Notes: generated by a model not told the origin, from the letters alone. Shown: positions 50,755-51,395, counted from the stretch's first letter. The stretch: 64,000 bases of DNA from Escherichia coli (GCF_013122565.1 NZ_CP053258.1), one strand, 5' to 3'. A program made the numbers and translations.

Positions 50755-51131
50755 GAAGCTGACCAGACAGTCGCCGCTTCGTCGTCGTCCTCTTCGGGGG
50801 AGACGGGCGGAGGGGAGGAAAGTCCGGGCTCCATAGGGCAGGGTGCCAGGTAACGCCTGGGGGGGAAACCCACGACCAGTGCAACAGAGAGCAAACCGCC
50901 GATGGCCCGCGCAAGCGGGATCAGGTAAGGGTGAAAGGGTGCGGTAAGAGCGCACCGCGCGGCTGGTAACAGTCCGTGGCACGGTAAACTCCACCCGGAG
51001 CAAGGCCAAATAGGGGTTCATAAGGTACGGCCCGTACTGAACCCGGGTAGGCTGCTTGAGCCAGTGAGCGATTGCTGGCCTAGATGAATGACTGTCCACG
51101 ACAGAACCCGGCTTATCGGTCAGTTTCACCT
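50755..51131 (+). ncRNA. rnpB: RNase P RNA (M1 RNA), 377 nt
   Basis: Sequence gaagctgaccagacagtcgccgcttcgtcgtcgtcctcttcgggggagacgggcggaggggaggaaagtccgggctccatagggcagggtgccaggtaacgcc… ending …cggtcagtttcacct matches E. coli M1 RNA as remembered; conserved P4 and GGAAAGUCCGGGCUCCAUAGGGCA regions. Confidence 0.95.
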
Positions 51132-51395
51132 GATTTACGTAAAAACCCGCTTCGGCGGGTTTTTACTTTTGGAAGGGGCAGAAAGATGAATGACTGTCCA
51201 CGACGCTATACCCAAAAGAAAGCGGCTTATCGGTCAGTTTCACCTGATGTAAGTAAAAACCCGCTTCGGCGGGTTTTTGCTTTTGGAGGGGCAGAAAGAT
51301 GAATGACTGTCCACGACACTATACCCAAAAGAAAGCGGCTTATCGGTCAGTTTCACCTGATGTACGTAATAAACCGTTCCGGCGGGTTTCAGATT
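51082..51395 (+). repeat. About three direct tandem repeats (roughly 102-113 bp) starting in the rnpB 3' end, each with a terminator-like hairpin
   Basis: Unit agatgaatgactgtccacgac…cggcttatcggtcagtttcacctgat…aaaaacccgcttcggcgggttttt recurs starting at 51082, 51184 and 51297; the third copy is degenerate. Confidence 0.75.

What the first reader, a model, noticed from the sequence alone, without database searches (positions are those of the whole stretch)
51082..51395. Tandem repeats duplicating the rnpB 3' end and terminator
Immediately 3' of M1 RNA, a unit of about 102-113 bp containing the last roughly 50 nt of rnpB plus a terminator hairpin (aaaaacccgcttcggcgggttttt) is repeated about three times with progressive degeneration. 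Such repeats can give multiple termination or processing sites and are candidates for copy-number variation between strains. The long spacer-less units rule out a CRISPR array.
Basis: seen in the sequence. Interest (0 to 1): 0.3.

Follow-up and report, generated by a model that had tools for sequence, protein, structure and literature searches.

The report
Repeated rnpB tail-and-terminator units
The last 50 bases of the E. coli RNase P RNA gene and its transcription stop signal are copied head-to-tail downstream; the repeat is real, long known and varies in copy number between strains, so it is an ordinary feature, though it also holds the docking site of a small mobile island.

Summary
Observation confirmed. 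rnpB lies at 50755-51131. Its last 50 nt, terminator T1 and a spacer form unit 1 (51082-51183). Unit 2 is 51184-51296 (113 nt) and unit 3 is 51297-51399.

The extra units are not plain copies. An 18-nt segment replaces the 6 nt of the P4 3' strand. Salmonella, Klebsiella, Citrobacter, Cedecea, Erwinia and Pantoea share this variant, so the duplicate is ancient. Terminators are homogenised within each genome.

Of 5,426 complete E. coli genomes, 32% have no extra unit and the rest have 1-8. T1 and T2 are strong hairpins; T3 is dead. The small ORFs are not conserved. No Rfam family or promoter matches.

Each unit carries the core CTTATCGGTCAG. A flagellin islet with a 486-aa integrase (flk-type) inserts there, next to rnpB in 18 E. 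coli genomes.

From memory, these are the 113-bp repeats of Reed and Altman (PNAS 1983); I could not retrieve the paper. Best reading: a recombination-maintained array of pseudo-3' ends giving back-up terminators and multiple attachment cores. Already known; modest interest.

The parts
50719..50747 (+). rnpB promoter-like site (GTGACA-17-TATACT)
   Evidence: It ends 8 nt before the Rfam start of rnpB.
50755..51131 (+). rnpB, RNase P RNA (M1 RNA), class A
   Evidence: RF00010, 318.6 bits, full length. RefSeq annotation of the same locus in other strains.
51082..51183 (+). Unit 1 (102 nt): the last 50 nt of rnpB (J18/2, P2-3', P4-3' and P1-3' strands), the 3' trailer, terminator T1 and a spacer
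51139..51166 (+). Terminator T1: hairpin GUAAAAACCCGC-UUCG-GCGGGUUUUUAC with a U tract
   Evidence: -19.4 kcal/mol, z -5.96. Inverted repeat I3. It is the 'rnpBT1' terminator used by Cambray et al. 2013.
51184..51296 (+). Unit 2 (113 nt): head, replaced segment, tail, T2 and spacer
   Evidence: The model R1 scores it 91.3 bits.
51205..51222 (+). The 18-nt segment GCTATACCCAAAAGAAAG that replaces AGAACC, the P4 3' strand of rnpB. It is the diagnostic mark of an extra unit.
   Evidence: It is shared across genera. Mean identity is 0.73 against 0.47 for shuffled sequence.
51251..51282 (+). Terminator T2
   Evidence: -21.0 kcal/mol, z -6.31. Inverted repeat I2.
51297..51399 (+). Unit 3: intact head, replaced segment and tail, with a decayed terminator (51370-51399, 4 mismatches)
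   Evidence: One search gives -4.4 kcal/mol, no better than shuffles.
51113..51124 (+). Core CTTATCGGTCAG in the unit 1 tail. It is repeated at 51227-51238 and 51340-51351. It is the only block invariant between rnpB, the extra units and both ends of the flk-type islet.
   Evidence: alignment A3..
51416..51513 (.). Pair of REP elements (BIME-like) inserted inside the array
   Evidence: Sub-threshold Rfam hits to REP-derived families ES036 and naRNA4. This part of the query gives a median of 27 places per E. coli genome. It is absent from some array types.
51520..51594 (+). Decayed fourth unit (tail-like 51520-51538, dead terminator 51539-51559, spacer 51560-51579) and head stub GATGAATATCTACGG (51580-51594)
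   Evidence: D2 copy at 51538-51567, 83%. (-2.4 kcal/mol). The stub directly follows T1 in single-copy strains L005 and L008.
51629..52815 (-). Convergent yhaC, frameshifted in this strain. It bounds the array.
   Evidence: and 10-19.

Best explanation
This is an old, vertically inherited tandem array of 'pseudo-3'-ends' of the RNase P RNA gene. The first unit is the real end of rnpB with its intrinsic terminator. Each further unit repeats the J18/2-P2 'head', the P1 'tail', a terminator and a spacer. The catalytic-core P4 strand is replaced by an unrelated 18 nt, so an extra unit cannot complete a working M1 RNA.

Shown here: the variant unit is shared from Escherichia to Erwinia and Pantoea. 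Head, tail and terminator are kept like the resident rnpB and like one another within a genome, which is concerted evolution. Unit number changes freely between strains, from 0 to 8 extra.

Inferred mechanism: unequal homologous recombination between units expands and contracts the array, and gene conversion from rnpB refreshes the shared parts.

Inferred function: any polymerase that reads through T1 meets a second terminator of equal strength. The hairpins are A-tract/T-tract symmetric, so they may also stop antisense transcription from the convergent yhaC. Read-through RNA would carry a duplicated 3' trailer.

Shown in other genomes: every unit also carries the 12-bp core CTTATCGGTCAG. A tyrosine-integrase islet (flk-type, carrying flagellin and a fliC repressor) inserts there. 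The array is therefore a run of alternative attachment sites beside an essential gene.
For: Anatomy. Terminator strength. T1 is an established intrinsic terminator.

Copy-number variation: 3,673 of 5,426 genomes carry 8,282 extra units, with a range of 1-8. A systematic sample of 60 gave 20 genomes with one, 10 with two, 26 with three and 4 with four extra units. Loci with 1-4 total units and several array architectures were read directly.

Antiquity: the same head, replaced segment and tail architecture occurs in about 13-16 of 36 informative Enterobacterales loci and in none of the non-enteric loci. It also occurs in Salmonella (6 extra units) and Klebsiella (3). Variants of the replaced segment follow taxonomy: GACGCT... 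in Enterobacteriaceae and TCCGCT... in Erwinia, Pantoea and Bisph1.

Concerted evolution: the 50 nt after an extra tail are 0.86-1.00 identical to those after the rnpB tail in the same genome, against 0.62 between genera. Tails track the species' own rnpB tail.

Attachment core: in E. coli H240 and CFSAN061761, rnpB is followed by a 486-aa integrase, then YagK/YfjJ, an invertase, flagellin and a phase-1 flagellin repressor. The displaced host tail, T1 and the array come after that. The same arrangement is present in 18 of 5,426 genomes, including ECC-1470, whose FlkA islet is published. The literature says the flk GI is excised by tyrosine recombinase Orf486 acting on flanking direct repeats. 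The islet arm abuts the tail of an extra unit in L017, L107 and L112, and the tail of rnpB itself in L073, L093, L128 and L133.
Against: No transcript data were available. Termination at T2, read-through frequency and processing are all inferred.

The replaced segment cannot be refreshed from rnpB, yet it is better conserved (0.73) than the spacer (0.50; shuffled baselines 0.47 and 0.43). It is identical between E. coli and Salmonella. That hints at selection beyond a spare terminator.

32% of E. coli genomes lack extra units, so any function is dispensable. The third terminator is dead, so not every unit terminates.
Confidence: 0.6

Rival explanations
1. The extra units began as integration scars. 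An element carrying an rnpB-like attP inserted into the rnpB tail. This displaced the host tail and terminator behind an element-derived, unconstrained 'pseudo-head'. The element interior was later lost, and the remaining attR-type unit was amplified by unequal crossing-over and partly re-homogenised with rnpB.
For: The living flk-type islet does what the first step of this model needs. In E. coli H240 and in Cedecea (L112), attR is an islet-derived rnpB-like stretch (AGATGCCTGACGTATGGTTGA...) followed by the core, the host tail and the host terminator. Similarity to rnpB starts at AGATG, the same boundary as the repeat unit. Decayed islet arms sit next to rnpB or extra-unit tails in five genera. 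Duplication of the 3' end of a stable-RNA gene is the standard signature of island insertion at tRNA and tmRNA genes (Islander abstract).
Against: The modern attR pseudo-head has rnpB length and lacks the 12 extra nt. Its sequence differs from the canonical unit, matching rnpB at only 9 of 11 positions over AGATGnnTGAC. The attR junction occurs in only 16 E. coli genomes, mostly the islet carriers, and the one non-carrier copy examined (OW1E2) lay at another chromosomal site, so no scar intermediate beside rnpB was seen. The strict 113-bp periodicity needs only unequal recombination. No integrase lies near the window's array.
Confidence: 0.25
2. The extra unit is a selected non-coding RNA. It would be released from read-through transcripts, as rtT RNA is released from the tyrT repeats, and folded by pairing of its head with its tail.
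For: Conservation of the unit-specific segment is above background across 12 genera. Arrays persist in many genera despite frequent loss. RNAalifold finds a head-tail helix in which 3 pairs keep pairing through double changes, ACUGUCC/GGUCAGU to ACUCUCC/GGUGAGU. Each unit ends in a terminator hairpin plus U tract, like many small RNAs.
Against: The consensus fold is weak (-3.7 kcal/mol). All compensatory changes come from one lineage, a Pantoea MAG, so they count as one event. Common E. coli unit variants break the inner helix. No Rfam family matches, rtT included. No promoter lies in the units. One third of E. coli strains lack them.
Confidence: 0.12
3. The units encode small basic peptides. 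An ATG lies in GATGAATG, preceded by GGAGGGG.
For: ORFs exist in each unit, for example 51299-51400 (MNDCPRHYTQKKAAYRSVSPDV..., 33 aa) and 51190-51252 (20 aa), with a Shine-Dalgarno-like GGAGGGG 9 nt upstream. From memory, the 1983 description pointed these out.
Against: The reading frame is not conserved. The replaced segment is 18 nt in E. coli and Salmonella, 17 in Klebsiella and 19 in the Cedecea group, and Enterobacter Ag1 has a stop after 9 codons. The 72-aa ORF at 51084-51302 exists only because of this strain's 1-nt insertion. RefSeq annotates no CDS there.
Confidence: 0.03

Closest known systems
The 113-bp repeats in the 3' flank of E. coli rnpB (Reed and Altman, PNAS 1983, 80:5359). 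Cited from memory; the paper could not be retrieved.
   Same: Same locus and same 113-bp period. Each unit holds the M1 3' terminal sequence plus a rho-independent terminator and short ORFs. The K-12-like locus L001 has three extra units plus a remnant, which fits the '3.5 copies' I recall.
   Different: This window has one unit fewer than K-12 and a 1-nt insertion in the first spacer. The population-wide copy numbers, the cross-genus distribution and the link to an integrase core were worked out here. I do not know them from that paper.
The tyrT locus 178-bp repeats and rtT RNA (Rossi et al. 1981, from memory; Bosl and Kersten 1991, reference seen; Rfam RtT)
   Same: Tandem repeats directly 3' of a stable-RNA gene. 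Each begins with a copy of that gene's 3' end and contains a short basic ORF. They lie in enterobacteria.
   Different: There is no sequence or structure match to any Rfam family at E<=10. The rnpB units each end in an intrinsic terminator. No processed RNA product is known to me.
Genomic islands at tRNA and tmRNA genes, and the E. coli flk genomic islet (Feng et al. 2008; Liu et al. 2012, PMC3378880)
   Same: A tyrosine integrase islet sits at the 3' end of a stable-RNA gene. It restores the gene end with its own sequence and leaves a displaced 3' fragment as a direct repeat. The flk GI is excised by Orf486 acting on its direct repeats.
   Different: The window has no islet. Its repeats are contiguous 113-bp units, not repeats flanking kilobases of cargo. 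The accessible texts do not name rnpB as the site; that link is shown here.
rnpB T1 intrinsic terminator, a synthetic-biology part (Cambray et al. 2013, PMC3643576)
   Same: T1 (51139-51166) is that terminator, including the A-stretch/U-tail outer pairing the paper discusses.
   Different: The paper deals with T1 alone, not the downstream copies.

Membership tests
rnpB 3'-flanking 113-bp repeats (Reed and Altman 1983) | Lies immediately 3' of E. coli rnpB, overlapping the gene's end | tested here: met
   The garK-rnpB-yhaC context was confirmed in RefSeq genomes.
rnpB 3'-flanking 113-bp repeats (Reed and Altman 1983) | Unit length 113 bp, head-to-tail | tested here: met
   (period 113, 94% matches). 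(spacing 113).
rnpB 3'-flanking 113-bp repeats (Reed and Altman 1983) | Each unit has the M1 3'-terminal sequence plus a terminator hairpin | tested here: met
   The third hairpin is decayed.
Intrinsic (Rho-independent) terminator | G+C-rich hairpin followed by a U tract | tested here: met
   T1 and T2 fold at -19.4 and -21.0 kcal/mol and are followed by UUUUU. T3 and the remnant fail. The simple scan missed T1 and T2, probably because the A/T tracts extend the stem and use up the T run (my reading of its rules).
Intrinsic (Rho-independent) terminator | Transcripts end there in vivo | not testable with these tools
   T1 was only named as a terminator in the literature retrieved.
rtT / tyrT-type repeat RNA | Repeat starts with the 3' end of the upstream stable-RNA gene | tested here: met
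rtT / tyrT-type repeat RNA | Match to the Rfam RtT model | tested here: not met
   RtT is not among the matches at E<=10.
rtT / tyrT-type repeat RNA | Stable RNA released by processing | not testable with these tools
   No expression data.
CRISPR array | Short repeats separated by unique spacers of similar length | tested here: not met
   The units are contiguous and 113 nt long. Only sub-threshold CRISPR-DR hits fall on the terminator hairpins (23 bits against a gathering score of 50).
att-site direct repeats of an integrative island | Integrase gene next to the repeat | tested here: not met
   There is none in the window. One is present at this site in 18 other E. coli genomes.
att-site direct repeats of an integrative island | Shared core at both island ends and in the empty site | tested here: met
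   CTTATCGGTCAG is invariant in rnpB, in the extra units, and in attL and attR of the E. coli H240 and Cedecea islets.
Small protein-coding gene | Reading frame conserved among relatives | tested here: not met
   Indels of 17, 18 and 19 nt and an early stop.
REP/BIME element (51416-51513 only) | Imperfect palindromes present in many copies per genome | tested here: inconclusive
   Sub-threshold hits to REP-derived Rfam families. A query that includes it gives a median of 27 places per genome. No dedicated REP model was run.

The most novel reading that the evidence does not exclude
The extra unit is a selected element, not a passive duplicate, and has been kept since before Enterobacteriaceae and Erwiniaceae split. 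It could act as a structured RNA released from rnpB read-through transcripts. Alternatively it could act as a set of decoy attachment sites, letting flk-type islets dock beside the essential RNase P RNA gene rather than in it. Either role would explain why a segment that rnpB cannot refresh is conserved, and why two terminator alleles are shared by E. coli and Salmonella arrays.
Probability: 0.2. Interest if true: 0.5.

Novelty: already known. Interest (0 to 1): 0.3.

Why it matters
For the scan this is a true positive that needs no follow-up as a discovery. The feature was described decades ago and T1 is a standard terminator part.

Practically, the array is a hypervariable marker, with 0-8 extra units across E. 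coli. It can confuse short-read assembly and rnpB-based typing or qPCR designs that reach into the 3' end.

Biologically, three points may interest RNase P and mobile-element specialists. The variant unit is conserved across enteric genera. It is homogenised with rnpB. Its tail is the crossover core of a flagellar phase-variation islet. Together these make the rnpB 3' end an attachment site comparable to those in tRNA and tmRNA genes.

Tried and rejected
Literature. The 1983 paper, Bosl and Kersten 1991 and Feng et al. 2008 are not held. Full-text searches for the title or for rnpB with yhaC, attB or tyrT found nothing relevant. Those citations therefore rest on memory or on reference lists.

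Known RNA families. None match the units at gathering score or at E<=10. None match the islet arm either.

Internal promoter. None was found in the units.

Peptide coding. Rejected on frame inconsistency.

Head-tail hairpin. Two pairing registers were considered. RNAalifold supports one only weakly, and all covariation comes from one lineage. I did not pursue it as a finding.

Integrase next to the islet arm. None was found in Enterobacter Bisph1 or Pluralibacter. The neighbours are a PAAR/pyocin toxin and housekeeping genes. Only an N-terminal remnant survives in Enterobacter MGH24.

Phage and plasmid collections. Hits to the unit were mis-filed chromosomal records. These were useful as Salmonella and Klebsiella sources but are not evidence of a mobile attP.

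Scar intermediates in E. coli. The attR junction occurs in only 16 genomes. The one non-carrier copy examined, in strain OW1E2, lies at another chromosomal site.

The metagenome scan and all protein-structure tools were not needed.

Full report
**What is there.** The window holds the E. coli garR-garK-rnpB-yhaC region on the + strand. Rfam places RNase P RNA at 50755-51131 (318.6 bits), behind a GTGACA-17-TATACT promoter-like site.

Tandem Repeats Finder reports a 113-nt period at 51109-51389 with 94% matches and score 499. The 21-mer AGATGAATGACTGTCCACGAC starts at 51082, 51184 and 51297. The 26-mer CGGCTTATCGGTCAGTTTCACCTGAT starts at 51109, 51223 and 51336. About 0.00-0.01 matches are expected by chance.

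- Unit 1 (51082-51183, 102 nt) is the last 50 nt of rnpB, its 3' trailer, terminator T1 and a spacer.
- Unit 2 is 51184-51296 (113 nt).
- Unit 3 is 51297-51399.

The observation and its coordinates are therefore confirmed.

The extra units are not plain copies. Where rnpB reads CCACGAC-AGAACC-CGGCTTATCGG, units 2 and 3 read CCACGAC-GCTATACCCAAAAGAAAG-CGGCTTATCGG. The J18/2-P2 'head' and the P1 'tail' are intact, but the 3' strand of the catalytic P4 helix is gone. The structural assignment comes from the Rfam alignment and general knowledge of M1 RNA.

T1 and T2 are strong hairpins with U tracts, at -19.4 and -21.0 kcal/mol and z about -6. The third hairpin (-4.4) folds no better than shuffled sequence.

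- a pair of REP elements (51416-51513);
- a decayed tail, terminator and spacer (51520-51579);
- a head stub, GATGAATATCTACGG (51580-51594).

In strains without extra units the same stub follows T1 directly (L005 and L008). Single-copy strains therefore look like deletion products of longer arrays.

**Strain variation.** Ten RefSeq loci showed 1, 2, 3 or 4 units in total. The gap between rnpB and yhaC ranged from 106 to 613 nt.

A 66-nt probe was designed so that megablast can hit only the extra units. It matched 3,673 of 5,426 complete genomes, with 8,282 copies in all and 1-8 per genome, and none on plasmids. In a systematic sample of 60 matching genomes, 20 had one copy, 10 had two, 26 had three (K-12 MG1655 among them) and 4 had four.

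About 32% of genomes have none. The independent sample gives a similar figure (11 of 39 rows). I did not check that the arrays with 8 copies are contiguous.

Several architectures exist: with or without the REP pair, two terminator alleles that can sit in any unit, and a second-order duplication next to an IS621 insertion in strain GF47.

Motif counts and a covariance model built from 25 extra units found extra units (58-91 bits) only in Enterobacterales. The taxa were Escherichia species, Citrobacter youngae, Phytobacter, Pluralibacter, two Cedecea and related 'Enterobacter' strains, Erwinia mallotivora and a Pantoea MAG. That is about 13-16 of 36 loci with enough downstream sequence.

Mis-filed chromosomal records in the phage and plasmid collections added three more. 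Salmonella Senftenberg has six extra units, S. Kentucky has one and Klebsiella pneumoniae has three.

All these units share the head, replaced segment and tail layout. Variants of the replaced segment follow taxonomy. The duplicate therefore predates the split of Enterobacteriaceae and Erwiniaceae and was inherited vertically, with many losses.

**How the array evolves.** Mean pairwise identity across 12 genera is as follows:

| Segment | Identity | Shuffled baseline |
|---|---|---|
| Head | 0.90 | not computed |
| Tail | 0.82 | not computed |
| Replaced segment | 0.73 | 0.47 |
| Spacer | 0.50 | 0.43 |

Within a genome, the 50 nt after an extra tail are 0.86-1.00 identical to those after the rnpB tail. 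Between genera the figure is 0.62. Extra tails also carry the species-specific tail variant of the resident rnpB.

This is concerted evolution. I infer gene conversion between rnpB and the units, and unequal homologous recombination between units as the cause of the copy-number changes.

The conservation of the replaced segment is the main observation a purely passive model does not explain. rnpB cannot refresh that segment, yet it is identical between E. coli and Salmonella.

**What it probably does.** No expression data could be reached, so function is inferred. T1 is an established terminator, and T2 is predicted to be at least as strong. Unit 2 should therefore stop polymerases that read through T1. 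The symmetric A-tract/T-tract hairpins could also stop antisense transcription from the convergent yhaC. From memory of work by the Altman and Lee laboratories, the 3' trailer that RNase E cuts in the M1 precursor is duplicated with two changes.

Other roles were tested and not supported:

- No promoter lies in the units.
- No Rfam family matches, rtT included.
- The short basic ORFs do not keep their frame between genera.
- A head-tail hairpin is predicted only weakly, at -3.7 kcal/mol. Its three compensatory pairs all come from the Pantoea lineage.

**An unexpected link to a mobile element.** In several genera the tail is followed by a conserved sequence, TTCTTCTAAAACAATACGTTGGTGTG.... The tail in question belongs to rnpB in L073, L093, L128 and L133, and to the last extra unit in L017, L107 and L112.

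In E. coli H240 the same sequence follows rnpB and opens a 7.5-kb islet. The islet encodes a tyrosine integrase, a YagK/YfjJ protein, an invertase, a flagellin and a phase-1 flagellin repressor. RefSeq annotates the same set in strain CFSAN061761, with an integrase CDS of 486 aa.

The islet ends with an rnpB-like stretch (AGATGCCTGACGTATGGTTGA...). After it come the host tail, T1 and the normal array. A 3-kb toxin islet in Cedecea has the same two junctions. An alignment of rnpB, an extra unit and both junctions from both species leaves CTTATCGGTCAG as the only invariant block. Islet-type sequence lies 3' of it at the left junction and host-type sequence at the right.

Eighteen of 5,426 E. coli genomes have this integrase next to rnpB. 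One is ECC-1470, whose FlkA/FlkB islet is described in the literature. Liu et al. 2012 state that the flk genomic islet is excised by tyrosine recombinase Orf486 acting on its flanking direct repeats. The islet seen here is therefore most likely the flk GI family, and its direct repeats are the rnpB tail. Whether the original paper names rnpB as the site I could not check.

Two things follow.

- Every unit of the array is a potential attachment site.
- The first extra unit may have started as the scar of such an insertion. The modern right junction starts its rnpB similarity at the same AGATG boundary.

Against the scar origin, the modern junction differs in sequence and length from the canonical unit. 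No scar intermediates were found beside rnpB in E. coli. I rate that origin at about 0.25.

**Comparison with what is known, and verdict.** From memory, this is the repeat that Reed and Altman described in 1983, with 113-bp units, terminators and short ORFs. The K-12-like locus matches the roughly 3.5 copies I recall.

The closest analogue is the 178-bp repeat behind tyrT that yields rtT RNA, but the rnpB unit fails the Rfam membership test. The att-site reading matches the tRNA/tmRNA island paradigm in its core feature, but the window itself holds no island.

The finding is real, correctly interpreted and already known, so the score stays low. The population copy-number figures, the cross-genus conservation and the attachment-core link add modest interest.

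Noticed in passing
window 51629-52815 (-), break near 52117-52147: yhaC is split into 171-aa and 237-aa ORFs. Against the intact 395-aa YhaC of strain RM9872 there is a single 1-nt gap, so the gene is frameshifted in this strain.
   Followed up: partly
window 51170-51176: The spacer reads GGAAGGGG where other strains read GGAGGGG. The extra base makes the unit 1 to unit 2 spacing 102 nt. It fuses two unit ORFs into a 72-aa ORF (51084-51302) that is strain-specific and almost certainly meaningless.
   Followed up: yes
window 51416-51513: A REP pair sits inside the array between unit 3 and the decayed fourth unit. It gives sub-threshold Rfam hits to ES036 and naRNA4. Arrays without REP also exist (L005, L007, L009).
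   Followed up: partly
L004 (E. coli GF47), about 600-700 nt past the rnpB 3' end: A second-order duplication joins the REP spacer (...GAGATGGCG) to a unit tail (GCTTATCGG...). An IS621 transposase gene lies just beyond, inserted at the second REP copy.
   Followed up: no
L009, L010 (E. coli) and L131 (Salmonella): Two terminator alleles coexist in the arrays of both E. coli and Salmonella. One is CCCGC-UUCG-GCGGG and the other has a longer CCCGCCAGYGTAARCTGGCGGG stem. Either can be the one directly behind rnpB.
   Followed up: no
L137 446-7940 (E. coli H240); L138 2124-11100 (CFSAN061761): A flagellin phase-variation islet is inserted at the rnpB tail. It carries a 486-aa integrase, YagK/YfjJ, an invertase, flagellin and a fliC repressor. 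The host tail and array are displaced to its far end. It is present in 18 of 5,426 genomes, and the rnpB tail becomes CAGCTTCAAC.
   Followed up: yes
L112 4586-7557 (Cedecea sulfonylureivorans); L017 1537-3300 (Enterobacter sp. Bisph1): PAAR / S-type-pyocin toxin cassettes with small immunity-like ORFs sit behind the last extra unit, after a decayed islet arm. The Cedecea cassette is flanked by rnpB-tail direct repeats. No integrase is present.
   Followed up: partly
L133 4072-4200 and homologues in L073, L093, L107, L136: The first roughly 130 nt of the islet arm fold into a long branched stem (-33.3 kcal/mol, z -2.0) and match no Rfam family. It could be integrase arm-site DNA or an RNA element.
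   Followed up: partly
L133 (NZ_CP109732.1, E. roggenkampii 'plasmid', 90.9 kb): A record filed as a circular plasmid carries garD-garL-garR, rnpB with the islet arm, and phage tail-fibre, DinI and S24-peptidase genes. It is either a phage-plasmid that captured chromosomal DNA or a misassembly.
   Followed up: no
L008 (E. coli 181.1) and the 578-nt-span class: Many E. coli strains lack yhaB and yhaC altogether. rnpB, T1, the stub and about 80 nt of the yhaC 3' end are joined to the tdcR region. The AT-rich yhaBC segment therefore behaves as a dispensable insert bounded by the array.
   Followed up: no
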